22,887 bases of DNA, from the UHGV virus genome UHGV-0306720, one strand, 5' to 3'. The stretch is from a virus. Shown here piece after piece: positions 1 to 18,605 of the stretch. Position 1 is the first letter of the stretch, and the number at the start of each line of letters is the position of its first letter. The notes under the pieces are model-generated. The model had not been told where the DNA came from, searched no databases, and was given only the letters and a program-made list of their open reading frames with translations. Position numbers and translations under genes: made by a program.

Positions 1-1102
1 GAGGTGAACCGACGTTATATCCAGCCCCACCAATCAACGTAATTGAAACAACAGAACTCGCCTGCGGCATGGTTACCGTTGCTAATTTGAACCAACCAGC
101 ACCACCGCTGAATGACATAGTTGTTGAGTTAAGCGTACCAATATCTTTCGGTGTCAGTGTTATATCCGCTGAAAGCGCCTTACCATTCACCTTACGGGCA
201 GAAGGTACCCGACCATTCGCATTGTCATTAGCTGCTTTCACTGCTTTCGGTGTCGCGGCAAGCGTTTCAGATGTGCTGTTAGTCGCGCTGCTTAGCTGGA
301 CAATCCCTTTTTGTGCTGTCGTAGCGTCCTGAGCGGTATATTTCCCGTTAGCAAGGTCATATGCTGTCTTTACCGCTTTCGGTGTTGCGGCCAGTGCTTC
401 AGACGTGCTGTTGGTGGCGCTACTGAGCTGAACTATCCCTTTTCGCGCAGTGGTAGCGTCCTGTGCGGTGTATTTGCCATTAGCCAGGTCATATGCCGCC
501 TTAACAGCCTTTGGGGTTGCCGCAAGCGTTTCAGAATCGCTGTTGGTGGCGCTACTGAGTTGAACAAAGCCTTTTGCAGTCAGCGAGGCGTCCGGGTGAC
601 GTCGTGACTGTTCATGCTCTTTCAGTTTGTCATCCACGTAATCCACTGTGGCCATCACCATGGTGTTATCCACGGTAAGCGCCACGGTGGCCGTGCTGGA
701 TACGGTCAGAATGGTGCGAAATGTTTGTGCACGTCCGGACCCCTCGGCAACGGTTGGTTTGTAACTTTCGGCAGTATTGCCCACCGCGATTAAATCGCCG
801 TGCTCATCAAATACACCAATTTCCCGGATCCAGAATCCGCCCGTTTCAGGAGGAATAACCAGCTCTGCAATAATGCGGTTCTGATGTGTTGCGTCCAGGA
901 TGACGCGATTAACAGTGTGTCGCCACACCTCATGCACAAGACGGGTCTGCTTACTGTCTGGCGAGGGCAACGTGCCGCCGCCGTCACCCACGGCCATATG
1001 AGTCAGGCGGACCGGTTTACCATCTGGTGTGGCTGCCTGCGCTAATTTTTTTTCACCCGTATCGGTGATAACGGTTTTAAATTTTCGTGTTGTGGTACTC
1101 AT
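1..1102 (-). CDS. H: Tail fibre protein (gpH-like), N-terminal 367 codons; 3' end lies beyond window start
   Basis: Open frame from ATG at 1102 to the window edge, so absent from the ORF track. Translation MSTTTRKFKTVITDTGEKKLAQAATPDGKPVRLTHMAVGDGGG...ELVIPPETGGFWIREIGVF...VDYVDDKLKEHEQSRRHPDASLTAKGFVQLSSATNS... resembles the P2 gpH N-terminus as recalled. Sits directly after gpI as in P2. Confidence 0.8.
   Translation of the reverse strand, partial: MSTTTRKFKTVITDTGEKKLAQAATPDGKPVRLTHMAVGDGGGTLPSPDSKQTRLVHEVWRHTVNRVILDATHQNRIIAELVIPPETGGFWIREIGVFDEHGDLIAVGNTAESYKPTVAEGSGRAQTFRTILTVSSTATVALTVDNTMVMATVDYVDDKLKEHEQSRRHPDASLTAKGFVQLSSATNSDSETLAATPKAVKAAYDLANGKYTAQDATTARKGIVQLSSATNSTSEALAATPKAVKTAYDLANGKYTAQDATTAQKGIVQLSSATNSTSETLAATPKAVKAANDNANGRVPSARKVNGKALSADITLTPKDIGTLNSTTMSFSGGAGWFKLATVTMPQASSVVSITLIGGAGYNVGSP
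233..574 (-). repeat. About 2.6 tandem copies of a 132-bp (44-aa) coding repeat inside the tail-fibre gene
   Basis: Protein repeats KGFVQLSSATNSDSETLAATPKAVKAAYDLANGKYTAQDATTAR / KGIVQLSSATNSTSEALAATPKAVKTAYDLANGKYTAQDATTAQ / KGIVQLSSATNSTSETLAATPKAVKAANDNANG; the same periodicity is visible in the plus-strand DNA. Confidence 0.85.
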
Positions 1103-9515: not shown

Positions 9516-11267
9516 ATGATTCAGGACGCTTTTGTGCGCCAGCGTGCGCGGCAACTTTACTGGCAGGGGTATCCGCCCGCAGAAATATCACGTCTGATGG
9601 GAATAAACCCGAACACGATTTATGCGTGGAAAAAACGCGACCAGTGGGATGAAACACCACCCGTGCAGCGTGTTACGCAGTCCATCGATGCGCGCCTCAT
9701 CCAGCTTACTGAAAAACAGAATAAAACAGGCGGTGACTTTAAGGAAATAGACCTGCTGACCCGGCAGCTTAAAAAGCTGCATGATGGCCAGCCGGATGTG
9801 ATGACCGCAGGAAAGAAAGGCCGGGCGAAAAAACTCAAAAATCATTTCACGCCGGAACAGATTGCCGCACTGCGGGAAAAAATCATCAGCAGGCTGGAGT
9901 GGCATCAGCGGGGCTGGTTTGACTCCCTGACCCTTTGCAGGGAAGCCGGGATACGTAACAGGATGATCCTGAAATCCCGACAGATTGGGGCGACCTGGTA
10001 TTTTGCACAGGAAGCTCTGCTGATGGCGCTGCGTGACGATGTGGCGCAACCTTACCAGCGTAACCAGATTTTTTTGTCTGCGTCGCGTCGTCAGGCGTTC
10101 CAGTTTAAAAGCATTATTCAGAAGGCCGCGGCTGAAGTTGATGTGGAGCTGAAAGGGGGCGATAAAATCATCCTCTCCAACGGCGCAGAGCTGCATTTTC
10201 TCGGCACTTCTGCTGCGTCGGCACAGTCCTATACGGGCAATTTTTATTTTGATGAATTTTTCTGGGTCAGTCGCTTTGCTGAACTGCGCAAGGTGGCTGG
10301 CGCTATGGCAACCCTCAGCGGACTGCGGCGCACCTACTTCTCCACGCCATCCACCGAAACGCACGAGGCATACGCCTACTGGAACGGCGACCGCTGGAAC
10401 GAGAAAAAGGCCTCGCATAAACGCCAGCGTTTTTCTGTGGACTGGAAAACGCTGCATAACGGGCTTATCTGCCCTGACCGGACGTGGCGGCAAATTGTCA
10501 CGCTGGAAGATGTGGTTAATCACGGCTGGAAACACACCGATATCGACGAAATTCGTGATGAAAACACCGAAGACGAGTTCCTCAATCTCTATATGTGTGA
10601 GTTTGTCCGCGAAGGGGAATCGGCATTTAACCTGAATATCCTGATTGGCTGCGGTGTTGACGGATACGACGACTGGAAAGACTGGAAACCTTTTGCTCCC
10701 CGCCCGATGGGGAATCGTCCGGTATGGATTGGGTATGACGCAAACGGCAGTAGTGGCAACGGCGACAGCGGCGCTGTGTCCGTGGTGGTTCCTCCGGCTG
10801 TTCCTGGTGGCCGTTTTCGAACGGTGGAGACGCGACGCGTTCAGGGGCTGGAGTTTGAAGAACAGGCCAGAGTCATTGAAGAGTTCACGTATCGCTACAA
10901 CGTGGAACACATCGGCATTGATGTGACGGGCGGGAACGGGGAGGCTGTTTATCAGATAGTGAAGCGGTTTTTCCCTGCTGCTATTCCGTACACCTTCACG
11001 CTGTCATCAAAACGGTCGCTGGTACTGAAAATGCTGCAAATAATGCGTGCCGGGCGGTGGGAATACGATCGCGCCGAACGCGAGCTGGTCGCGGCCTTTA
11101 ACGCCGTGCGTAAGGTGAAAACACCGGGCGGCTTTATCACTTACGAAACGGACCGAGCGAGGGGGATCAGCCACGGCGACCTTGCGTGGGCAACCATGCT
11201 TGCTGTCATTAACGAACCGATTGGCGGCGAAGGAGAAAACGAGCGTTTCACGGTTATGGAGTTCTGA
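9516..11267 (+). CDS. P: Terminase large (ATPase) subunit gpP-like
   Basis: 583 aa; N-terminal HTH-like segment (YPPAEISRLMGINPNTIYAWKKR); SD GGGGGAG before the ATG; TGATG overlap with Q. Confidence 0.9.
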   Translation: MIQDAFVRQRARQLYWQGYPPAEISRLMGINPNTIYAWKKRDQWDETPPVQRVTQSIDARLIQLTEKQNKTGGDFKEIDLLTRQLKKLHDGQPDVMTAGKKGRAKKLKNHFTPEQIAALREKIISRLEWHQRGWFDSLTLCREAGIRNRMILKSRQIGATWYFAQEALLMALRDDVAQPYQRNQIFLSASRRQAFQFKSIIQKAAAEVDVELKGGDKIILSNGAELHFLGTSAASAQSYTGNFYFDEFFWVSRFAELRKVAGAMATLSGLRRTYFSTPSTETHEAYAYWNGDRWNEKKASHKRQRFSVDWKTLHNGLICPDRTWRQIVTLEDVVNHGWKHTDIDEIRDENTEDEFLNLYMCEFVREGESAFNLNILIGCGVDGYDDWKDWKPFAPRPMGNRPVWIGYDANGSSGNGDSGAVSVVVPPAVPGGRFRTVETRRVQGLEFEEQARVIEEFTYRYNVEHIGIDVTGGNGEAVYQIVKRFFPAAIPYTFTLSSKRSLVLKMLQIMRAGRWEYDRAERELVAAFNAVRKVKTPGGFITYETDRARGISHGDLAWATMLAVINEPIGGEGENERFTVMEF

Positions 11268-12313
11268 TGAGCAGAAAAAATAAAAAAGTGCGCATGAGTT
11301 CACGCATTGATCTCGCTGATGCGCTCAGGAAAGAATCATCGCTCAGTGCATTCACATTTGATGGTCCTTATCGCCTGACCGGGCATGACCTGCTGGACAA
11401 TATGTACTGTGCTGATAACGGGCGGTGGTATGAAACCCCGGTGGACTGGTACGGTCTGGCAAGAGCAGCCCGGCAAACGTCCTGGCATCAGTCTGCGCTT
11501 TACTTTAAGCGCAATGTATTACTCGGTTGCTACATCCCGCACCCGCTGCTTTCCCGGCAGGATTTCTCGGCGCTGGCGCTGGACTGGTTTGTGTTCGGTA
11601 ACGCATTCCTTGAGCTTCGAAGCAATATGCTCGGCGAACCGCTTAAATTACGGCACGCACTGGCGAAATACATGCGACGCGGAAGCGATCTTGAATCATG
11701 GTGGTATGTGCAGGATGGCAAGGACGCGTTCCAGTTTCGCCCTGGCAAAGTGTGCCACCTGATGAATCCGGACATTAACCAGGAAATTTATGGCATGCCG
11801 GAATATCTCGGCGCATTACTCTCGGCCAGCCTGTCTCATTCGGCGGACATGTTCAGAAAACTGTATTACGACAATGGATCCCACGCCGGGTGCATCATCT
11901 ACATCGGTGCAGCGCAGGTAAACCGCGAAAGCATGGACTCCCTGAAAGAAACGTTACAGGGTGCGCGTGGTGGTGGCGCGTTTAAAAACGTGCTCATCCA
12001 TGCGCCCAACGGGGGCAAAGAGGGGGTGCAAATTTTGCCGTTCCAGCAGATCACCGCAAAGGATGAGTTCATGAATGTTAAGGCGGCATCCCGTGATGAT
12101 GTGCTGGCTGCGCACCGCGTTCCGCCGCAACTGATGGGGGCGATGCCGGGCGAAAAAAGTGCGTTTGGTGATGTGGAGAAGGCCGCGCGGGTTTACGCAA
12201 TTAACGAGCTGATGCCCGTCATGGAGGCCATGAAGCACATCAATGACTGGCTTGGCGAAGAGGTGATCCGCTTTAACCCTTACGCACTGTTAGACACCCA
12301 GCCCACATCCTGA
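11267..12313 (+). CDS. Q: Portal protein gpQ-like
   Basis: 348 aa, close to the P2 Q length, coupled to P, last gene before the cos region. Confidence 0.85.
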   Translation: MSRKNKKVRMSSRIDLADALRKESSLSAFTFDGPYRLTGHDLLDNMYCADNGRWYETPVDWYGLARAARQTSWHQSALYFKRNVLLGCYIPHPLLSRQDFSALALDWFVFGNAFLELRSNMLGEPLKLRHALAKYMRRGSDLESWWYVQDGKDAFQFRPGKVCHLMNPDINQEIYGMPEYLGALLSASLSHSADMFRKLYYDNGSHAGCIIYIGAAQVNRESMDSLKETLQGARGGGAFKNVLIHAPNGGKEGVQILPFQQITAKDEFMNVKAASRDDVLAAHRVPPQLMGAMPGEKSAFGDVEKAARVYAINELMPVMEAMKHINDWLGEEVIRFNPYALLDTQPTS

Positions 12314-12770
12314 CGCGCTTCGCTTGTCTGCTGCTTCGCCGGGGCATAAAAAATTTATGCCCCGGCTCTCCAGCTCCTGTATCAGTCAGATAATTTCACG
12401 ACGCTTTCCTGCTGATTGCCATCATCGACAGTCAGACTCTTACGCAATCCCACCGCGTTGACTGCATGTTCTCGCCGTCTCAGTGCGATTTTGACGGCCT
12501 TACCTTTCACCCCATCAAATCAAAAGCCCTCACGTCTTTTTCACGCTCAGCGTGAGAAAGACAGCCATTCTGTTGTGTCGCTGCGACATCGTTCAGGGGA
12601 TGCTATTTACCCCCTGAAACGCGGGCTGTTCCCCCGTCACCTGCGCGCAGAAAAAACGCGTTTTTTTGTGCACGTACGGATCCCTGACGGATCCAGCCAC
12701 CACGCGGGCCGGAAGTACAAAAAGTCGTTCAAAAAAATTGTGCAAACTTGTGCACTATCGTGCAAACAAA
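12314..12770. other. Presumed cos/packaging region (joined cohesive ends); exact cos site not identified
   Basis: Non-coding stretch right after the portal gene where P2 has cos. Perfect 10-bp-arm hairpin at 12341-12363, palindromes at 12534-12562, 12592-12618 and 12649-12668, direct repeats ACGGATCC x2 (12676-12694) and TGTGCA-type repeats (12738-12767). Confidence 0.4.
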
Positions 12771-12792
12771 AAAAGCGCCTTATCGGCGCTTC
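12764..12792 (-). terminator. Rho-independent terminator downstream of the 89-aa ORF
   Basis: AGCGCC-TTATC-GGCGCT hairpin; plus-strand A7 immediately upstream gives a U7 tract after the hairpin on the minus strand. Confidence 0.55.
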
Positions 12793-12799
12793 AAAAGTA

Positions 12800-13069
12800 T
12801 CAATTGTTGCTGTGTATTAATCGCCAACCACGAACATATGCTTCATAGGCATCTCTGTGCCTTACAGTTCCAGCCTGGCTAAACGGAATGTTAGCTAAAA
12901 CTAAATCATTCTGAGCCATAGCGCGTCCTTCAAGCGCATCTTTTATGCCTAGCTCAAAAGCACAGGCAGCGCATTTGTGCCGACCTTCTTGTCCTTGATA
13001 TTCAGGGAGAGACAGAAATGTTGGATTATAACGATGAGGGTTCTTGCAAATACCTGTTTTAGCCCGCAC
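12800..13069 (-). CDS. Hypothetical 89-aa protein with Cys/His cluster (GTG start)
   Basis: ORF in the AT-rich island with its own terminator; motif C-x4-H...H-K-C-A-A-C suggests metal binding. SD-like GAGGT 9 nt before the GTG. No family recognised. Confidence 0.35.
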   Translation of the reverse strand: MRAKTGICKNPHRYNPTFLSLPEYQGQEGRHKCAACAFELGIKDALEGRAMAQNDLVLANIPFSQAGTVRHRDAYEAYVRGWRLIHSNN

Positions 13070-13199
13070 TTTATTTACCTCATAGGAAAAATATGCGTGC
13101 CTTTACAGAGGTGCGTGTAAGCAATAAAATATACGACGCACATTTTGATTTACTTCGGAAGGCACGCATATCAGGTTAAGTGAGTCCGACCGAGTTTTA

Positions 13200-13232
13200 C
13201 GCCCCAATAGTTGCTGCTATTGGGGCGTTTTG
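13200..13232 (+). terminator. Hairpin with 11-bp perfect stem followed by TTTTG
   Basis: CGCCCCAATAG-TTGCTG-CTATTGGGGCG then TTTTG on the plus strand, just downstream of the 28-codon plus-strand ORF. Confidence 0.5.
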
Positions 13233-13433
13233 CATGGACAATGCCGCGCAATTATCTTGTCGCTCACAATGCGAACGATCTTACAAAAAGGCACATTACT
13301 GTCAAGATAATTGATCGTTTTAATCGATAGATAATAGACAATCTATTTGTTTAACAGATCGATTATTGAAGTAAGTGTGCCAAATGGAATGATACTGTCT
13401 CTATAAACGTGAGCATTTTTCGCGCAGATGCTT

Positions 13434-13745
13434 TTACTCAGGAAATAACGCCCGGATATTCCCAGCCATCTGGCTGGTTATCTTAGCCACTGGTGCAGAC
13501 TGTGCTTCAAACTTTTTTGAGCTGATTTGTGTCACAGGTAACATCTCATCATCAGCCCATGCGGCCAGTCGGTAAGCCTCTGCCGGATTCGTCTTCAGAA
13601 GTGCCAGCCCGGCCAGAAAAGCCACGCGTTGGCCGCTTTTGCGGGCTTCTGGTGTAAGGCTGTCCAGCCAAGCGCATGCTTCTCCTTCGTTCTTGACGGC
13701 AGCTGGCTTCAGATAGAAACTTATTCTTCTGGTTGGTGTCGTCAT
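13434..13745 (-). CDS. parR: ParR/StbB-like partition adaptor (103 aa)
   Basis: RRISFYLKPAAVKNEGEACAWLDSLTPEARKSGQRVAFLAGLALL resembles the plasmid R1 ParR N-terminal region as recalled. Begins 4 nt after the parM-like stop with SD AAGGAG. Confidence 0.7.
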   Translation of the reverse strand: MTTPTRRISFYLKPAAVKNEGEACAWLDSLTPEARKSGQRVAFLAGLALLKTNPAEAYRLAAWADDEMLPVTQISSKKFEAQSAPVAKITSQMAGNIRALFPE

Positions 13746-13749
13746 TGGT

Positions 13750-14709
13750 TTACTCCTTGTTCATTGCGTACAGCCCATTAACCAGAGCAAATTGTGGCCC
13801 CCCGTCCGCGATGAAAGTCGCATTAACTCCGCAGGCTTCGCGGATAGCGGGTGCCACAATCTCCGCCCCGCCACCGACAACCATCACCCGCCCGTAACCC
13901 GAAAAAACCGCCAGCGCGCGGATCACGCGTTGTTTCAGTGTTTCTTCCTTTTCACGAATAACCGCCATCAGGCTGGCGTAATGCGCGTCATTGTGGATGT
14001 GCTGGCGCAGCCAGGCTTCATCATGGCGATGTTCGATAATGGTATTGGCGATGTGGTGACTGGTGCGCATACCGTTAGTGGCCATCACCGACAGTACGGC
14101 ATCGGCCATAAGAGAAACGCCTACGTGTGGATCGCAAAACACCTGGCTGATACCTGCCAGTTGCCCCTGAACCTTTGCCACATCCAGCGTGGTTCCGCCC
14201 AAATCCACAATCAACAGGGATTCAAACGGACTCATGTCAGCCAGTGCCTTAAAGCCAGCCGGAATGGATTCAGGCATAACCCGTACGTTACGGATAGTGA
14301 ATGCTTCGCCGTTCTGGTACTCCACCGGGCGCATGACGTTCGCTTTTTTGCGGTTGATGTTGGCCATGTCCGGCTGTGCGTTTGTATCGAAATACTCGCT
14401 CAGTGGCAGGGTGACAACCACATCCACTTCCTGTGGTGTGATGCCTGATTTGACCAGCGCGTGATGAATGGCAATTACATTCACATCGCTGTACTGGTAT
14501 TGCGTGTCGGTCGTCTGGACAAAGCGATCGCTGACCGGATCAAAACCATAGCGCACGCCATCAAGCATGTAGTTCGCGGGCTGCGTGCCACCGAATGGCG
14601 CAGACCATTCCGACTTGAAGCTGTTCGGGCTGATGGCGTTGCGGCGTTCGCCGTTCTCAGTCCATGCCAGCTTGATGTTGGTGGAGCCGTCGTCGATACA
14701 AATTTTCAT
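13750..14709 (-). CDS. parM: Actin-like segregation ATPase, ParM/StbA family (319 aa)
   Basis: MKICIDDGSTNIKLAW, YSDVNVIAIHHAL, VMPESIPAG, LIVDLGGTTLDV and VMVVGGGAEI are the actin-fold motifs and resemble plasmid R1 ParM/StbA along the whole length, as recalled. Confidence 0.85.
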   Translation of the reverse strand: MKICIDDGSTNIKLAWTENGERRNAISPNSFKSEWSAPFGGTQPANYMLDGVRYGFDPVSDRFVQTTDTQYQYSDVNVIAIHHALVKSGITPQEVDVVVTLPLSEYFDTNAQPDMANINRKKANVMRPVEYQNGEAFTIRNVRVMPESIPAGFKALADMSPFESLLIVDLGGTTLDVAKVQGQLAGISQVFCDPHVGVSLMADAVLSVMATNGMRTSHHIANTIIEHRHDEAWLRQHIHNDAHYASLMAVIREKEETLKQRVIRALAVFSGYGRVMVVGGGAEIVAPAIREACGVNATFIADGGPQFALVNGLYAMNKE

Positions 14710-14744: not shown

Positions 14745-14852
14745 CAGGATTTTTAAATCCCGCTTTTGCCTGTTTTGTGCGCGCTTCATATATCGCGGCG
14801 CGTTTTTTGCTCATTTACGGGATTTGTGAGTCCCGTTTCTGTCTGTTTTTTG
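14745..14852. repeat. Two ~35-bp imperfect direct repeats (27/35 identical), each with an internal dyad, 73 bp apart
   Basis: CAGGATTTTTAAATCCCGCTTTTGCCTGTTTTGTG (14745-14779) versus CGGGATTTGTGAGTCCCGTTTCTGTCTGTTTTTTG (14818-14852). The first lies between the A stop and the parM start; the second lies within the last codons of A. Confidence 0.6.
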
Positions 14853-17608
14853 TTTCCACTGGTCAGGCCACCCCGCAGCAGGTCTGCTTTGCGGCTGGCG
14901 CGTTCAGTGGTTTCACTGATTCTCTGTGCGTGCTCTGCGTCGCGGATGGCGCGCAGCATGTCAGAAAGCACGGTAACGGGTGTTTTCATGGTGTTCTGGT
15001 CCTGCTGAAGTGTGGATGCCAGGCGTGCGGCGGCTTCAGGGTCTGATGCCCCCAGCTGTGCCAGATAGCTGGCGACCGGGTTATGGCGGATCTCCGTGCT
15101 GCTTACGCCATGATTACGGCTCAGGCGCTGCCAGAGCTGCGTGATTCGGCTGTCCGGGCGGGTATCCGGTTTGCGTACAATTTCAAATCCCTGCGGTGCA
15201 ATGATGCTGCCGTCAACGTACAGACTGCCGCCCCGTAACAGGTGCTGCATCTGTTGTTCACCGATATGCAGGCCGAGAGATTCAGCAGACTCCCGCCATT
15301 CTTTAGCGAGTAATTCGTGGTTATCAGGCAAAGGCCGCTGCTGTTTGCGGCTCTGTGTCCAGCTCTGCATTTCATCACTGCTGTTTTTTGCCTGTTTGTC
15401 ACGAAGCGAACGCATCAGCGCCCGGCGTTCGTGCCGTTTCAGTGAGCGCATCCATTCGTTCACGTCAACGCCGTCAGGAAGCTGCGGCCACGGTGCTGGC
15501 CGTTCTTCCGGCTGTTCTGTCCCGTTGTTGTCCGTTTCCTGTACACGGGGACAGTTATTGCCACGAGTCCAAGGGGCGGCAGGGCCGCCCTGAAGGTCAA
15601 AACCATTTTCGCGGGCGCTGTCTTCCGCTTCCGGTTTGCGTCTTACCAGCTTCCAGTTATCCGGATGCGTGCACACACGGGAGGATTCCCCGATGAGTGG
15701 CGACCAGATCCCGTAAATCTGTACGCTCTGTTCGCCGTAATCGTTCAGCTCATCTGCGAGGTCGTAGGCGGTGCGAATCAGGTAGTCTTTGCGTGGAACA
15801 AGTACGCCGCCCTGTTTCTCTATGTAGGTGGCAAAACATCCGGCATCAGCGGCAGCAAGAACCGCATCCATTGCGTCATCCTTCAGCCGTTGCGGGCCTT
15901 CGGGGTTGCGTGCCATCTGGCTGGCAAGGCGACGCAGTTCACGCCACACCTGACGGGAGGGGATACCAAAGAACTGGAACTGGCGGACCCGGTGAAGGCG
16001 CGCCCAGCCGATGGCGCGTTCCACGCTCTCGGCCATTGATTTTCCGGTTTCGTGGTCAACGCGTGGTTTGCCCGTTTTCGGGTCGATGCCATCCACGGCG
16101 CGGCTGTCCAGGTTCTTTCCGATGTAGGTGGCGATGTAGCTGGTTGGCGTGCCTTTTGAGCCGTCGACATACTCCACCTTAAAGCGCGGAGTAATATCAT
16201 TGCCCAGCTCGTGGCGGTCTTCCTGAATGGCAATATCGCGGGTGATGGCCACGATGCTGTCGATTTCTTCCGGATGAGCAAAGACCATCATATGCCAGTG
16301 CACGGTGCCGTCATGGTGAGGCTCCACCGTGCGGATGCCATACCAGCGCAGGCCGTCGCGGTTCAGTTTCTTGCGGACCGCCGCAAAAAACGTGTTAACC
16401 AGGTAATCGCTGGAGTCGCGCATGGTGGCCCCGTTCCATTTGGGGTTCGGATGACCGTTCTCCGTTGTTGCGTGGTATTTTGACGGGCAGGTGACAGTCA
16501 GAAACACCGCTCTGTCGCCACGGGCTTCGGCCAGAAGTTCCAGTCCCTTCATGGTGGCCATCATTTCTGCCTTACGGTGAACCGGGTTACTTACTCCCGC
16601 GTAATACACTGTCTCGAGATCAATCGTGAAGCCGTCTTCGTTTTCCAGTTCGAAGCTCTTCAGGAAGTCGCGGGTTTTCTCGCGCTGTGCGCGAAACTCG
16701 CTTAACGCGTCCTGGCTCAGATAGGGTGATGTTTTTCTGGAAACCAGACAGGCGGCGCGGAGTTGTTCTTCTCTCCACTCGCAACGTAACAGCCACAGTT
16801 TGCGTTTCCACCATTCCGCACAGGTCAGGCGAAGGATTGCGCCCGGCAGCAGCTCCGTGTCCGGTTCGTTCCTCCGGTCTTTGTCTGTTGTCAGTGCGTC
16901 ATAATGTGGAGGCATGGCGTGCAGGTGTAACGCCATGCGGGCCAGCATCTGATACGCCTTCAGCGTTACATCCATGGTCAGTTCGCCATCAGTCGCGCCA
17001 AAGCCATCGCAGAGTTTTTCGAAGGTGCTGCTGAACATCGCCGCCGTCATGGTGGCCAGCGTCTGTATCTGGTGCTTGTTGAGCTGCGGCAGGTAAAGCA
17101 AATCATCCAGGCGTTCGCGTCCGGCAAGGGAGCGATAACCCGGTGTCAGCCAGCGGTGGTCGGTGCGGTCCAGACGTTCGAATATTTTGCGCAGGGTTCC
17201 GCGCGCGTAGCGTTCAGCCTGCCAGCTCTTTTTGCCTTTCCGGCGATCGACTTCCTGTTTTTTGCGCAGGAAGGAGAGGTGGCGAATAAGCGGATCGCGC
17301 AGATAGGACGGCAGCAGGCGCAGCGAGGCCATGGCTTCATCCACCGCGCCGCGTGCCTGTTTTCTGGCGTCTCCTGCCAGTGTGATGGTTTTGTCCTGTT
17401 TTTCCTGTGCATCCAGGCTTTTATTAATCAGGTTGCCCAGCGGCGTGGCGGAGAACGCCGCATCAGCCATTTCCTGGCGGCGCTCGTTCTCTGCCCGGTA
17501 GGCATCCAGCCAGGAGGAAAGCGCAGATTCAGGAACGGGGATCCCCGTTCCTTCACGTCCCACTGCGTGGCGCGGTTGTTGCCAGTCCCTGATGTACTCT
17601 GCCGTCAT
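14786..17608 (-). CDS. A: Replication initiation endonuclease gpA-like (HUH rolling-circle initiator), 940 aa
   Basis: HUH motif in VHWHMMVFAHPEE; large last gene of the early operon as in P2; ATG confirmed. Confidence 0.8.
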   Translation of the reverse strand: MTAEYIRDWQQPRHAVGREGTGIPVPESALSSWLDAYRAENERRQEMADAAFSATPLGNLINKSLDAQEKQDKTITLAGDARKQARGAVDEAMASLRLLPSYLRDPLIRHLSFLRKKQEVDRRKGKKSWQAERYARGTLRKIFERLDRTDHRWLTPGYRSLAGRERLDDLLYLPQLNKHQIQTLATMTAAMFSSTFEKLCDGFGATDGELTMDVTLKAYQMLARMALHLHAMPPHYDALTTDKDRRNEPDTELLPGAILRLTCAEWWKRKLWLLRCEWREEQLRAACLVSRKTSPYLSQDALSEFRAQREKTRDFLKSFELENEDGFTIDLETVYYAGVSNPVHRKAEMMATMKGLELLAEARGDRAVFLTVTCPSKYHATTENGHPNPKWNGATMRDSSDYLVNTFFAAVRKKLNRDGLRWYGIRTVEPHHDGTVHWHMMVFAHPEEIDSIVAITRDIAIQEDRHELGNDITPRFKVEYVDGSKGTPTSYIATYIGKNLDSRAVDGIDPKTGKPRVDHETGKSMAESVERAIGWARLHRVRQFQFFGIPSRQVWRELRRLASQMARNPEGPQRLKDDAMDAVLAAADAGCFATYIEKQGGVLVPRKDYLIRTAYDLADELNDYGEQSVQIYGIWSPLIGESSRVCTHPDNWKLVRRKPEAEDSARENGFDLQGGPAAPWTRGNNCPRVQETDNNGTEQPEERPAPWPQLPDGVDVNEWMRSLKRHERRALMRSLRDKQAKNSSDEMQSWTQSRKQQRPLPDNHELLAKEWRESAESLGLHIGEQQMQHLLRGGSLYVDGSIIAPQGFEIVRKPDTRPDSRITQLWQRLSRNHGVSSTEIRHNPVASYLAQLGASDPEAAARLASTLQQDQNTMKTPVTVLSDMLRAIRDAEHAQRISETTERASRKADLLRGGLTSGNKKQTETGLTNPVNEQKTRRDI

Positions 17609-18283: not shown

Positions 18284-18457
18284 GGTGTGGCCTCTTTGCT
18301 AGTAAGTTTTAAAAACTCACCATCCAGAGGTTCCAAGCTCGGGGTGGTGAGACGTACAGGGTTGGAACTACCGGCTAGCAAAGAACCCGGCCCGACCGAA
18401 GTCGGCCCCATACGCCCCACCATAATTCGTGTGCGAAAAAGACGTGGCGATACGGTA

Positions 18458-18488
18458 CGCACAAAAAAACCGCTGGCGCGGTTGTGCG
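18458..18488 (-). terminator. Nested hairpin followed by a U7 tract on the minus strand, inside the early-operon gap
   Basis: CGCACAA...ACCGC-TGGC-GCGGT...TTGTGCG; the plus-strand A7 run becomes U7 after the stem on the minus strand. Confidence 0.4.
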
Positions 18489-18605
18489 CTTTGCTAGTCA
18501 GCGGGGTTCCAATCCCGGCACCCGTTTTATGAGGTGCAGCGGAAATGTAACCTGACTGATTGCGGCATGGCAAGCGGTTTTTTTGTGTGTGCATGTTCTG
18601 GTTTC

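What the first reader, a model, noticed from the sequence alone, without database searches (positions are those of the whole stretch)
12764..13232. AT-rich moron-like island: Cys/His 89-aa ORF with its own terminator, plus an IR-bracketed 28-codon ORF
Base composition drops sharply relative to the flanking phage genes. The minus-strand 89-aa ORF (GTG start) has a C-x4-H...HKCAAC cluster and ends at a clean terminator (12764-12792). Divergent from it, a plus-strand 28-codon ORF (13093-13179, MRAFTEVRVSNKIYDAHFDLLRKARISG) with an AGGA ribosome-binding site is bracketed by a perfect 13-bp inverted repeat (ATATGCGTGCCTT at 13091-13103 / AAGGCACGCATAT at 13159-13171) and followed by the terminator at 13200-13232. 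The long-range pairing would occlude the ribosome-binding site. This looks like a small autonomous regulatory or toxin-antitoxin-like unit, or a structured sRNA, riding in the accessory slot.
Basis: partly seen in the sequence, partly recalled or inferred. Interest (0 to 1): 0.5.

Follow-up and report, generated by a model that had tools for sequence, protein, structure and literature searches.

The report
Antisense-controlled zinc-finger gene cassette in prophage
The AT-rich island is a self-contained cargo cassette in a P2-family prophage: it carries a real 89-residue zinc-finger gene from a large uncharacterised family that elsewhere accompanies GATC restriction-modification systems, apparently kept in check by a small antisense RNA, while the proposed 28-codon ORF is not a gene.

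Summary
The sequence features reported are all present. The island is a 654-bp cargo cassette (12780-13433) in the cos-proximal hotspot of a P88-like (Xuanwuvirus) E. coli prophage.

**The protein.** The 89-aa ORF is a real gene (phrog_3941). At least 1,599 homologue clusters exist across many phyla, with no Pfam, NCBIfam, PADLOC or PDB match. A confident AF2 model has no known fold. C8, H12, C33 and C36 are conserved.

**Context.** Outside Enterobacterales and Orbales, 43 of 62 homologue loci lie within 3 kb of Dam-class methyltransferase or DpnII-type restriction-modification genes. Tandem copies of the domain are also fused to NOV_C nucleases.

**Regulatory architecture.** In 28 sequence-distinct enterobacterial or Gilliamella loci the gene carries the same upstream layout:
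- a GATC-flanked sense promoter about 200 nt upstream (clear in about 23 of the 28);
- a long structured leader;
- a Shine-Dalgarno hairpin;
- an antisense promoter (TTTACA-N17-TAnnnT) inside the leader hairpin, ending at the 13199-13232 terminator.

This predicts a cis-antisense sRNA of about 96 nt (13137-13232). The 13-bp inverted repeat is the leader-hairpin stem.

**Micro-ORF.** It is not conserved and starts upstream of the predicted antisense start site.

Transcripts, toxicity and protein function are untested.

The parts
12780..13433 (.). Whole cargo cassette (island) between the cos-proximal backbone and the parR stop codon
   Evidence: BLASTN of window 12000-14200 against P88 (L007) and Shae_phiSM (L008). 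Similarity stops at 12779/12783 and resumes at 13434, with unrelated cargo in between.
12764..12792 (-). Intrinsic terminator of the 89-aa gene (stem 12772-12792, T-run to 12764)
   Evidence: Terminator scan: 8-bp stem with 5 GC pairs, then TTTTTGTTTGC. It starts 8 nt after the stop codon.
12800..13069 (-). 89-aa CHCC zinc-finger protein gene (GTG start), family phrog_3941
   Evidence: ORF list. phrog_3941 E = 6e-49. 172 representative clusters at E < 1e-3 and 1,599 clusters with a profile. C8, H12, R30, G41, Q65 and R70 are invariant. AF2 pLDDT 88. Intact in 36 of 37 copies.
13077..13080 (-). Shine-Dalgarno GAGG, 7 nt before the GTG start
   Evidence: Read from the sequence. In 26 of 28 homologous cassettes part or all of the SD is paired in the predicted local fold.
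13091..13171 (-). Long leader hairpin of the mRNA (perfect 13-bp arms 13091-13103 / 13159-13171). It encloses the antisense promoter.
   Evidence: Inverted repeat. Chance expectation 0.04 per window. An equivalent hairpin with different arm sequences occurs in other lineages. Covariation on CM alignment A9.
13102..13130 (+). Antisense promoter: -35 TTTACA 13102-13107, 17-nt spacer, -10 TAAAAT 13125-13130
   Evidence: Promoter scan, 10 of 12 matches. TTTAC(A/T)-TAnnnT sits 28-41 nt from the start codon in 28 of 28 distinct cassettes, with a 17-nt spacer in 27 and 18 nt in one. A2 and T6 of the -10 box are invariant. It is absent from 35 of 36 distinct non-cassette homologue loci; the one match (L124) is off-register.
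13137..13232 (+). Predicted cis-antisense sRNA of about 96 nt (5' end inferred, not mapped)
   Evidence: Start inferred about 7 nt after the -10 box; the end is set by the terminator. The fold shows a 5' tail, a small hairpin and a terminator hairpin, z = -3.8. No Rfam family matches.
13199..13232 (+). Intrinsic terminator of the antisense sRNA (12-bp stem 13199-13228, then TTTTG)
   Evidence: Inverted repeat. Across 28 cassettes the 8-nt tail has a mean of 4.25 T on the antisense side against 1.2 on the sense side; the antisense tail has more T in 24 loci and fewer in none. Six of the 9 stem pairs show compensatory changes.
13278..13305 (-). Sense promoter: -35 TTGACA 13305-13300, 16-nt spacer, -10 TAAGAT 13283-13278. 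The predicted start near 13270 gives a 5' leader of about 200 nt.
   Evidence: Promoter scan, 10 of 12 matches. The equivalent TTGAnn-16..18-TAnnAT lies at -200 to -236 in about 23 of the 28 cassettes. It is conserved in L009 at 75% regional identity.
13277..13360 (.). Three GATC (Dam) sites at 13277, 13313 and 13357. One overlaps the -10 flank and one lies 7 nt upstream of the -35 box of the sense promoter.
   Evidence: GATC positions. GATC occurs at 12.1 per kb in the regulatory regions of 28 cassettes against 3.5 per kb in the whole loci. Its positions recur at about -217, -180, -75 and -44.
13316..13373 (.). AT-rich palindromic stretch (TAATCGAT...ATCGATTA) upstream of the sense promoter; a possible operator, function unknown
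   Evidence: Read from the sequence. About 75% identity to L009/L010 over window 13200-13379. Not found in P88.

Best explanation
The island is an autonomous cargo cassette of about 650 bp in the cos-proximal hotspot of a P88-like, P2-family prophage.

**The protein.** It encodes an 89-aa protein with a predicted C-x3-H...C-x2-C zinc site followed by two Q-G/A-x3-R-H-K motifs. The protein belongs to a large uncharacterised family. In most other bacteria that family is an accessory gene of Dam-class (D12) methyltransferase and DpnII-type GATC restriction-modification operons. It also forms the N-terminal module of NOV_C nucleases. I infer, without proof, that the protein binds DNA or reads GATC methylation state.

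**The regulation (inferred).**
- The mRNA starts at a sigma-70 promoter about 200 nt upstream (13305-13278), flanked by Dam sites.
- It carries a long structured leader.
- A second promoter inside that hairpin (13102-13130) fires the other way. It makes an RNA of about 96 nt that stops at the 13199-13232 terminator.
- This RNA is fully complementary to leader positions about -70 to -165. I infer that pairing remodels or cleaves the leader and keeps translation off, as leader-targeting antisense RNAs do in other systems.
- The GATC sites suggest a further layer of control by Dam methylation.

The 28-codon ORF is not a gene.

**Shown:** gene conservation, cassette boundaries, conservation of both promoters and of the terminator, hairpin covariation, and the restriction-modification association.
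**Inferred:** transcription starts, the sRNA-mRNA mechanism, Dam control, zinc binding, and the protein's activity.
For: **Gene**
- phrog_3941 at E = 6e-49; 172 and 1,599 homologue clusters.
- Conserved C8, H12, C33 and C36 and duplicated RHK motifs.
- pLDDT 88. Intact in 36 of 37 copies.
- Homologues sit in moron positions of a P22-like phage (just after cI) and a lambdoid phage (between Q and the lysis genes).

**Cassette and hotspot**
- Boundaries. The hotspot is described in PMC9122126 and PMC13586616.

**Antisense RNA**
- The promoter is conserved in 28 of 28 distinct cassettes at a fixed distance from the start codon, with a 17-nt spacer in 27 and 18 nt in one. It is absent from 35 of 36 distinct non-cassette homologue loci.
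- The terminator hairpin has its T-rich tail only on the antisense side.

**Leader structure**
- Hairpin arms differ between lineages but stay complementary.
- On CM alignment A9, 92.7% of cells pair against 76.4% in shuffles. Fourteen pairs change on both sides. Slid controls give 34-50%.
- U-G pairs on the sense strand of the long hairpin would be C-A mismatches on the other strand. This favours an mRNA-level structure.
- The SD is at least partly paired in 26 of 28 loci.

**GATC**
- Enriched 3.4-fold, at recurrent positions beside both promoters.

**Restriction-modification link**
- 43 of 62 non-cassette species-representative loci have restriction-modification genes within 3 kb (38 D12 methyltransferase, 31 DpnII, 33 N6_N4). 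None of 18 cassette loci does.
- Six of six metagenomic clusters lie next to a D12 methyltransferase.
- All four NOV_C fusion proteins examined lie beside a PDDEXK_11 nuclease gene; three also have a D12 methyltransferase gene, and none was called in the fourth locus (L225), where only about 1 kb of upstream sequence was retrieved.
- NOV_C is elsewhere fused to the EVE and McrB-N DNA-reader domains.
Against: - There is no expression data for either strand. Both transcription starts are inferred from consensus.
- The window's own copy matches the covariance model only weakly (21 bits, E = 0.026, though it is the top hit in the window). The model did not align its long hairpin. Its membership therefore rests on shared layout and on close relatives L009, L168 and L172.
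- The covariation counts come from an alignment fitted to the model.
- The U-tract of the sRNA terminator is short (UUUUG here, UUCCCU in many loci).
- GATC is not enriched upstream of the methyltransferase in the restriction-modification operons. Autoregulation through GATC binding is therefore unsupported there.
- The Klebsiella, Citrobacter and Serratia cassettes have few GATC sites.
Confidence: 0.6

Rival explanations
1. The cassette is a type I toxin-antitoxin or abortive-infection module. The 89-aa protein would be toxic and the antisense RNA would be the labile antitoxin. When an infecting phage shuts off host transcription, the sRNA decays, the stable structured mRNA is translated, and the cell is arrested. 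This shares the regulatory architecture of the best explanation but assigns a killing function.
For: - The architecture matches leader-targeting type I systems: a long leader with a sequestered SD, plus an antisense RNA over leader positions about -70 to -165.
- The location is a defence hotspot.
- Homologues sit in rex-like and moron slots of other temperate phages.
- Some restriction-modification-linked homologues lie directly downstream of a C-protein-like HTH gene (L221, L065). This suggests that expression of the family is generally kept tight.
- One E. coli genome has IS1 inserted at 13140-13147, separating the gene from its promoter.
Against: - The protein is soluble, mildly basic and 89 aa. 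It has no hydrophobic segment, unlike nearly all type I toxins (sequence; model).
- Many homologues are co-transcribed in restriction-modification operons with 4-30-nt gaps and no antisense module. This argues against intrinsic toxicity.
- There is no PADLOC hit.
- The ORF is intact in 36 of 37 copies.
Confidence: 0.2
2. The plus-strand 28-codon ORF (13093-13179) would be a translated micro-protein, such as a small toxin or leader peptide. Its ribosome-binding site would be gated by the 13-bp inverted repeat. Together with the 89-aa ORF it would form a two-gene regulatory or toxin-antitoxin pair.
For: - The open frame exists, with AGGA 5 nt upstream of the ATG.
- The inverted repeat overlaps the ATG.
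- The close relatives L168, L172 and L009 also have an ATG ORF starting at the equivalent position, also beginning M-R.
Against: - In 14 of 28 distinct cassettes no ATG ORF of at least 10 codons starts in that region of the antisense strand. The others encode unrelated peptides of 10-63 aa.
- The ATG lies upstream of the -35 box of the only conserved plus-strand promoter.
- There is no family hit in Pfam, PHROGs, NCBIfam or PADLOC.
- The shared M-R follows from the inverted-repeat sequence itself: the minus strand has the mirror ORF MRAF... at 13169.
Confidence: 0.03
3. The hairpins would be DNA-level or backbone elements rather than RNA regulators. Examples are a bidirectional terminator or centromere-like site belonging to the neighbouring parMR operon, or protein-binding palindromes or cruciforms used for cassette exchange.
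For: - The region adjoins parR (13434-13745).
- The window has a second perfect inverted repeat, 11 bp at 13249-13259 / 13303-13313, bracketing the sense promoter.
- It also has an ATCGAT/GATC-rich palindromic stretch at 13316-13373. Both could be operators.
Against: - P88 and Shae_phiSM keep parMR at 93% identity but lack the whole 12780-13433 block.
- The same hairpin, promoter and terminator layout travels with the gene in lambdoid and P22-like phages and in Gilliamella. The Providencia and Salmonella phage loci inspected show no par genes.
- The long helix keeps U-G pairs on the sense strand only.
- The terminator's T-run is strand-specific.
- An 11-bp inverted repeat is expected 0.87 times per window by chance.
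Confidence: 0.05

Closest known systems
Leader-targeting type I toxin-antitoxin systems (hok/sok, ldr/rdl, tisB/istR-1, zorO/orzO); comparison from my own knowledge
   Same: A small autonomous cassette with its own promoters and terminators. The mRNA has a long structured 5' leader and an occluded Shine-Dalgarno. A short antisense RNA pairs with the leader well upstream of the start codon.
   Different: The product is a soluble 89-aa predicted zinc-finger protein, not a hydrophobic peptide of under 60 aa. Toxicity is unknown. The family is mostly found without any antisense RNA inside restriction-modification operons. There is no Rfam match to Sok, Rdl, IstR or OrzO.
IS10 RNA-IN / RNA-OUT with the Dam-sensitive pIN promoter, and finP/traJ; from my own knowledge
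   Same: A cis-antisense RNA is combined with GATC sites in or beside the promoters, which would couple expression to methylation state or to replication.
   Different: Here the antisense RNA covers an internal part of a 200-nt leader, not the 5' end or start codon. Dam dependence is only inferred from site placement. The cargo is not a transposase or transfer regulator.
Phage antisense regulators of accessory genes: P22 sar/ant and P1/P7 c4/ant. A C4 RNA is present in this same window at 18340-18427.
   Same: A short, structured, terminator-ended phage RNA represses a neighbouring gene by pairing with its leader.
   Different: There is no sequence or structure similarity: the best sar hit scores 22 bits against a 43-bit threshold and covers only the terminator. 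The target gene family is different. This RNA is fully cis-encoded, inside a leader hairpin.
Controller (C) proteins of type II restriction-modification systems
   Same: A small protein of about 80-90 aa sits inside restriction-modification operons. In 11 of 36 cases it lies directly upstream of the endonuclease gene.
   Different: It has no helix-turn-helix. It is predicted to be a zinc finger with an unmatched fold. In some operons a separate HTH_3 C-like gene precedes it, so it is an additional component, not the C protein.
Lambda Ral and Rac Lar/RalR with the RalA antisense RNA (small phage restriction-alleviation proteins); from my own knowledge
   Same: A small phage-encoded, Cys-containing protein functionally tied to restriction-modification. 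RalR is also controlled by an antisense sRNA.
   Different: No sequence similarity: no Lar family (PF14354) match was reported in the Pfam scan. Ral and Lar act on type I systems. The link here is to Dam-class/DpnII type II systems and rests on gene neighbourhood only.
Cargo of the P2 cos-proximal hotspot (old, tin and many defence systems; PMC9122126, PMC13586616)
   Same: Same slot, between portal gpQ and the replication gene. The content is swapped between otherwise near-identical phages.
   Different: It matches none of the defence models in PADLOC. It is a single small gene with an RNA regulator, and anti-phage activity is untested.

Membership tests
phrog_3941 (PHROGs family of unknown function) | Significant full-length match to the family profile | tested here: met
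   E = 6.3e-49; residues 4-89 match profile positions 1-86 of 86.
Type I toxin-antitoxin system | A small antisense RNA encoded at the locus and complementary to the toxin mRNA | tested here: inconclusive
   Predicted from a promoter conserved in 28 of 28 cassettes plus a strand-specific terminator. No transcript data.
Type I toxin-antitoxin system | The toxin is a small, usually hydrophobic or membrane-active peptide | tested here: not met
   An 89-aa soluble protein of net charge about +4, with three short helices and no hydrophobic segment.
Type I toxin-antitoxin system | Overexpression of the protein is toxic and the RNA neutralises it | not testable with these tools
   Needs cloning and growth assays.
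Known RNA families (Rfam 15: Sok, sar, C4, IstR, ctRNA and others) | Covariance-model score at or above the gathering threshold | tested here: not met
   The only gathering-level hits in the window are C4 and isrK near 18.4 kb. Within 12700-13500 the best scores are 22 bits for ctRNA_pGA1 and sar, and both cover only the terminator.
Restriction-modification controller (C) proteins | Helix-turn-helix DNA-binding fold | tested here: not met
   No HTH family in Pfam at E up to 1. The model shows a Cys/His site with three helices and no PDB match.
Restriction-modification controller (C) proteins | Gene located in a restriction-modification operon, typically just upstream of the endonuclease gene | tested here: inconclusive
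   True for many homologues: 11 of 36 downstream neighbours are DpnII. It is not true for this copy, which has no restriction-modification gene nearby.
P2-family cos-proximal hotspot cargo | Variable block between portal gpQ and the replication gene, flanked by conserved backbone | tested here: met
   Portal at 11267-12313 and replication gene at 14786-17608. The flanks are 93-96% identical to P88, with different cargo between them. The hotspot is defined in PMC9122126.
Known anti-phage defence systems (PADLOC-DB 2.0) | Match to a defence-protein model | tested here: not met
   No PADLOC family for either ORF.
Zinc-binding treble-clef or zinc-ribbon type domain | Four conserved Cys/His ligands, with the second pair at the N-terminus of a helix | tested here: inconclusive
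   C8 and H12 are invariant, and C33 and C36 are at least 90% conserved with occasional Cys-to-His swaps. C33-x2-C36 sits at the start of helix 34-46. Ligand geometry and metal content were not checked, and there is no structural neighbour.
Rho-independent terminators (both ends of the unit) | A GC-rich hairpin followed by a T-run on the transcribed strand | tested here: met
   12792-12772 plus TTTTTGTTTGC on the minus strand. 13199-13228 plus TTTTG on the plus strand. The strand bias of the tail holds across 28 loci.

The most novel reading that the evidence does not exclude
The 89-aa protein may represent a previously unrecognised fourth component of Dam-class/DpnII-type GATC restriction-modification systems. 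It would be a zinc-finger that reads or acts on GATC methylation state, or that senses interference with the system.

Temperate phages of Dam-positive bacteria would have captured it as a stand-alone cassette. Its expression would be gated both by Dam methylation of its own promoters and by a cis-antisense RNA.

In the lysogen or during phage growth it would then modulate the host GATC machinery (Dam, MutH, SeqA) or GATC-specific restriction. It might act as a Ral-like enhancer of methylation or as a defence or anti-defence factor. That would make it a new class of phage-borne epigenetic modulator with a new sRNA family.
Probability: 0.2. Interest if true: 0.8.

Novelty: new variant of a known kind. 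Interest (0 to 1): 0.6.

Why it matters
- **A large unstudied family gets a context.** The protein family has at least 1,599 clusters at 90% identity across Proteobacteria, Bacteroidota, Firmicutes, Spirochaetes and others. It has no Pfam, NCBIfam, PADLOC or PDB counterpart. Yet it is one of the most consistent neighbours of DpnII/Dam-class GATC restriction-modification genes.
- **A new entry point.** The prophage version shows the same domain packaged with an unrecognised antisense-RNA control module in a documented defence hotspot. About a fifth of P2-like phages have only unknown genes at that hotspot (PMC13586616).
- **Concrete hypotheses.** It gives testable ideas for both an sRNA family and an accessory factor of restriction-modification systems.
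- **An annotation gap.** PGAP calls the ORF in some genomes and omits it in others that carry essentially the same sequence.

Tried and rejected
**Searches that found nothing**
- Pfam, NCBIfam and PADLOC scans of the 89-aa and 28-aa products: nothing beyond a sub-threshold chance hit.
- The word-indexed protein search with the single sequence found only two near-identical clusters. The exhaustive search was needed.
- The P2 cos 19-mer is absent from the window at up to 3 mismatches.

**RNA analyses that fell short**
- RNAalifold on a MAFFT alignment of all lineages gave no structure, because the arms were out of register. It worked only on one subgroup.
- Covariance models R1 and R2 recovered other lineages but did not align the window's long hairpin.
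- A cross-lineage duplex-energy test was uninformative. Many representatives share arms, and my region definitions were crude.

**Leads that did not hold**
- The STnc6030 asRNA of the BTP1 prophage is unrelated; it is antisense to tail genes.
- The idea that the protein autoregulates by binding GATC upstream of the restriction-modification operons is not supported, since no GATC cluster occurs there.
- The frameshifted copy in phage 503458 is dismissed as record quality, because its portal gene is also fragmented.
Full report
**Setting**

The window is a P2-family prophage of E. coli of the P88/Xuanwuvirus type.
- The terminase and portal genes (portal 11267-12313) are followed by a cos-proximal non-coding stretch and then the island.
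- After the island come parR/stbB (13434-13745, minus), parM (13750-14709, minus) and a 940-aa replication gene.
- The island region is 96-100% identical in 166 complete E. coli genomes and in two deposited phages.
- Against P88 and Citrobacter phage Shae_phiSM, similarity is 93-96% up to 12779/12783 and again from 13434. The 654 bp in between are replaced by unrelated cargo.
- This slot, between portal gpQ and the replication gene next to cos, is the published defence and diversity hotspot of P2-like phages (PMC9122126; PMC13586616).

**Check of the observation**

All reported features are present.
- GC drops to 0.40-0.45.
- The 89-aa minus-strand ORF has a GTG start preceded by GAGG at a 7-nt spacing.
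- Its terminator is at 12772-12792 with a T-run.
- The perfect 13-bp inverted repeat and the 12-bp hairpin at 13199-13228 are confirmed; the hairpin is followed by TTTTG on the plus strand only.
- A 13-bp perfect inverted repeat within 100 nt is expected 0.04 times per window by chance.
- Region 13070-13240 folds 5.6-6.5 SD better than shuffles.
- One correction: the first Cys-His spacing is C-x3-H.

**The 89-aa ORF is a real gene of a large, unnamed family**

- It matches phrog_3941 at E = 6e-49. It has no Pfam, NCBIfam or PADLOC family.
- An exhaustive HMMER search found 172 representative clusters at E < 1e-3. A profile search found 1,599 clusters. None of the 120 clusters listed carries a functional name or a Pfam domain.
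- Homologues at 55-61% identity occur in the P22-like Salmonella phage BIS08P22. There the gene lies one ORF downstream of cI, in the region that holds rexAB in lambda (the rex comparison is from my own knowledge).
- Another occurs in Providencia phage PSTCR7lys, between Q and the lysis genes on the opposite strand. Both are classic moron positions.
- The frame is intact in 36 of 37 near-identical copies. The exception is a record whose portal gene is also fragmented.
- Alignments show invariant C8, H12, R30, G41, Q65 and R70. Q25, H31, C33, C36, S64 and H71 are nearly invariant. The pattern is a C-x3-H...C-x2-C set followed by two Q-G/A-x3-R-H-K motifs.
- AlphaFold2 gives a confident model (pLDDT 88, pTM 0.81) in which C33-x2-C36 opens helix 34-46.

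**What the family is associated with**

- Among 80 species-representative genomes, the 62 loci outside Enterobacterales and Orbales are dominated by GATC-type restriction-modification genes.
  - Of 32 close same-strand upstream neighbours, 14 are D12-class N6-adenine methyltransferases and 7 are N6_N4 methyltransferases.
  - Of 36 downstream neighbours, 11 are DpnII endonucleases and 9 are methyltransferases.
  - With HMMs built from these neighbours, 43 of 62 loci have a restriction-modification gene within 3 kb (38 D12, 31 DpnII, 33 N6_N4). None of 18 cassette loci does.
- Six of six independently sampled metagenomic clusters also sit beside a D12 methyltransferase. The partner is a DpnII, PDDEXK_11 or DUF6996-type endonuclease, and gene order varies. 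In one case the gene lies directly after a C-protein-like HTH gene.
- The same motif occurs as two N-terminal copies in NOV_C (DUF3883) nucleases, at the C-terminus of DndB-like proteins and in a WYL protein.
- All four NOV_C fusions examined lie beside a PDDEXK_11 nuclease gene. Three also have a D12 methyltransferase gene; none was called in the fourth locus, where only about 1 kb of upstream sequence was retrieved.
- In other NOV_C proteins the N-terminal position is taken by EVE or McrB-N DNA-reader domains.
- From this I infer that the domain binds DNA or reads a DNA state linked to GATC methylation. That is an inference from context, not a demonstrated activity.

**The plus-strand element is a conserved antisense-RNA module, not a micro-ORF**

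The first clue came from a diverged island in the same slot of another E. coli prophage (L009).
- It carries a 57%-identical homologue.
- It has a different-sequence long inverted repeat at the same place, and the same terminator hairpin and upstream promoter.

Upstream regions from phage and genome collections gave 28 sequence-distinct cassettes. They come from E. coli, Providencia, Proteus, Enterobacter, Salmonella phages, Yersinia, Rahnella, Pantoea, Klebsiella, Citrobacter, Serratia and Gilliamella. Read on the gene strand, they share one layout:

1. **Sense promoter.** TTGAnn-16..18-TAnnAT lies 200-236 nt before the start codon in about 23 of the 28 cassettes. In most of these a GATC lies 6-7 nt upstream of the -35 box.
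2. **Strand-specific terminator.** A GC-rich hairpin is preceded by an A-run, which makes it a terminator for the opposite strand. The 8-nt tail has a mean of 4.25 T on the antisense side and 1.2 on the sense side. The antisense tail has more T in 24 loci and fewer in none.
3. **Long imperfect hairpin.**
4. **Antisense promoter.** Inside the hairpin's 3' arm lies the invariant TGTAAA(G), which is TTTACA on the other strand. It is followed by T-A-n-n-n-T after 17 nt in 27 cassettes and 18 nt in one, with A2 and T6 invariant. It sits 28-41 nt from the start codon in 28 of 28 cassettes.
5. **SD hairpin.** A short hairpin pairs part or all of the Shine-Dalgarno in 26 of 28 cassettes.

The antisense promoter motif is absent from 35 of 36 sequence-distinct non-cassette homologue loci. 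The single match (L124) lies at a different distance from the start.

In the window these elements map as follows:
- sense promoter 13305-13278;
- terminator 13199-13232;
- hairpin 13091-13171;
- antisense promoter 13102-13130;
- SD 13080-13077.

The predicted antisense RNA runs from about 13137 to 13232 (about 96 nt). It folds as a 5' tail, a small hairpin and a terminator. The mRNA leader is about 200 nt and fully overlaps it. No Rfam family matches.

**Evidence that the structures are selected**

- The arms of the long hairpin differ between lineages but remain complementary. Examples are AAGGCACGCATAT here, AGGTGAACACCTC in L168, AAAGCATTC and AAAGCGTTC in the Salmonella and Pantoea groups, and AAAGCCC...TAATGCTT in Gilliamella.
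- A covariance model was built from one subgroup. It recovered five other lineages at the right place (E = 4e-6 to 0.02).
- On the resulting 19-sequence alignment, 92.7% of cells form standard pairs against 76.4% in shuffles. Fourteen of 29 pairs change on both sides, and 71 cells do so against 18.9 expected. Sliding the partners drops pairing to 34-50%.
- Six of the 9 terminator pairs and 5 of the 9 outer-hairpin pairs show compensatory changes.
- Several outer-hairpin pairs are U-G on the sense strand. This favours a structure in the mRNA rather than in DNA or in the antisense RNA.
- Caveats: the alignment is fitted to the model. The window's own copy scores only 21 bits (E = 0.026, top hit in the window), and its long hairpin was not aligned. 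Its assignment rests on the shared layout and on close relatives L009, L168 and L172.

**The 28-codon ORF**

- In 14 of 28 cassettes no ATG ORF of at least 10 codons starts in that region of the antisense strand. In the others the peptides are unrelated.
- In the window the ATG (13093) lies upstream of the -35 box of the conserved promoter.
- The shared 'MR' start in the closest relatives is a by-product of the inverted repeat. The minus strand carries the mirror ORF MRAF....
- I therefore reject it as a gene.

**GATC sites**

- GATC is the most frequent palindromic tetramer in the 28 regulatory regions. It occurs at 12.1 per kb against 3.5 per kb in the whole loci.
- It recurs at about -217 and -180, flanking the sense -35 and -10 boxes. 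It also recurs at about -75 and -44, near the antisense start and -35 box.
- The window has GATC at 13313 (7 nt from the -35 box) and at 13277 (on the -10 flank).
- All hosts of the stand-alone cassette belong to Dam-positive orders (my own knowledge).
- Together with the family's link to Dam-class methyltransferases, this suggests methylation-dependent control. The Klebsiella, Citrobacter and Serratia cassettes have few sites, however. No GATC cluster precedes the restriction-modification operons either.

**Most likely mechanism**

- *Shown:* a conserved gene, a mobile cassette, two conserved convergently overlapping transcription units defined by promoters and terminators, and a covarying leader.
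- *Inferred:* the sRNA pairs with leader positions about -70 to -165. This includes the 5' arm of the long hairpin. Pairing either triggers cleavage or frees the 3' arm to trap the initiation region. In several lineages the TGTAAAG segment can alternatively pair with the start-codon region.
- *Outcome:* translation is kept low until the balance shifts.
- *Protein function:* whether the protein is a regulator or reader of GATC state, a defence effector or a toxin cannot be decided here. I put the architecture at about 0.7 and any specific protein function well below that.

**Comparison with known systems and novelty**

- The regulatory logic is that of leader-targeting antisense systems. These include the type I toxin-antitoxin pairs, IS10 RNA-OUT with its Dam-sensitive promoter, and the phage sar and c4 RNAs (comparison from my own knowledge).
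- The defining toxin feature of type I systems is not met.
- The protein is not a helix-turn-helix controller protein.
- There is no Rfam, Pfam or PADLOC entry for either component.
- I therefore class it as a new variant of a known kind. Both the RNA and the protein family appear undescribed in the resources I could search.

Noticed in passing
window 18340-18427 (-) and 18463-18537 (-): Rfam gathering-level matches to C4 antisense RNA (82.7 bits) and isrK (69.1 bits) lie side by side inside or next to ORFs of the early region. This suggests a P1/P7-type c4-like immunity RNA in this P2-family prophage.
   Followed up: no
window 13434-14709 (-): An integrated P2-family prophage carries a complete ParM/ParR (StbA/StbB) plasmid-partition pair directly next to the cargo slot. 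No obvious parC was looked for.
   Followed up: no
window 13249-13259 / 13303-13313: A second perfect inverted repeat (11 bp, CAATTATCTTG / CAAGATAATTG, 43 nt apart) brackets the sense promoter, just as the 13-bp repeat brackets the antisense promoter. It is not conserved in L009, and an 11-bp repeat is expected about 0.9 times per window by chance.
   Followed up: partly
window 13316-13373: An AT-rich stretch carries TAATCGAT...ATCGATTA palindromic ends and two GATC sites upstream of the sense promoter. The surrounding stretch (window 13200-13379) is about 75% identical in L009/L010. It may be an operator; the binding protein is unknown.
   Followed up: partly
window 12734-12767: Tandem approximate direct repeats (AAAATTGTGC / AAACTTGTGC and ATTGTGCAAAC / ATCGTGCAAAC) sit at the backbone edge just before the island boundary. 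The P2 cos 19-mer is not present in the window.
   Followed up: partly
L227 (E. coli CH4793), equivalent to window 13140-13147: In one genome an IS1 element is inserted with an 8-bp duplication right at the predicted antisense RNA start. This cuts the 89-aa gene off from its sense promoter and the sRNA promoter off from the sRNA body.
   Followed up: yes
L002 versus L003 (RefSeq E. coli genomes), equivalent to window 12800-13069: PGAP annotates the 89-aa ORF as a hypothetical protein in some genomes and leaves it unannotated in others that are 99-100% identical. The diverged homologue in L009 is also unannotated.
   Followed up: yes
L009 1763-2050 (-) and L010: The diverged version of the island in other E. 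coli P2-like prophages carries a second small gene (95 aa, no PADLOC hit) downstream of the zinc-finger homologue.
   Followed up: partly
L074, L075, L089, L092 (Citrobacter, Buttiauxella, Klebsiella): In this lineage the antisense-controlled zinc-finger gene is followed on the same strand, about 80 nt later, by a 320-405-aa ORF. Pfam found three DUF4062 matches among the scanned downstream neighbours; I assume they are in this group, but the per-member assignment was not shown. The arrangement suggests a two-gene operon.
   Followed up: partly
L131, L215, L216 (metagenomic contigs): Some homologues are followed by a DUF3644 protein that matches the PADLOC candidate system PDC-S19. Next come a D12 methyltransferase and a type II endonuclease (DUF6996/6997/7226). 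The loci are flanked by AbiEii, or lie on a conjugative element with TrwB and RadC.
   Followed up: partly
L007 4506-5173 (phage P88): P88 fills the same slot with two overlapping small genes (112 and 110 aa) that have no PADLOC match. One is annotated 'carboxylate-amine ligase / ClpX' in the record, which looks like an annotation artefact.
   Followed up: no
L006 (Escherichia phage 503458, NC_049341): This RefSeq phage record has the portal and partition genes split into several CDSs and a frameshifted copy of the 89-aa gene. This is probably assembly error rather than biology.
   Followed up: partly
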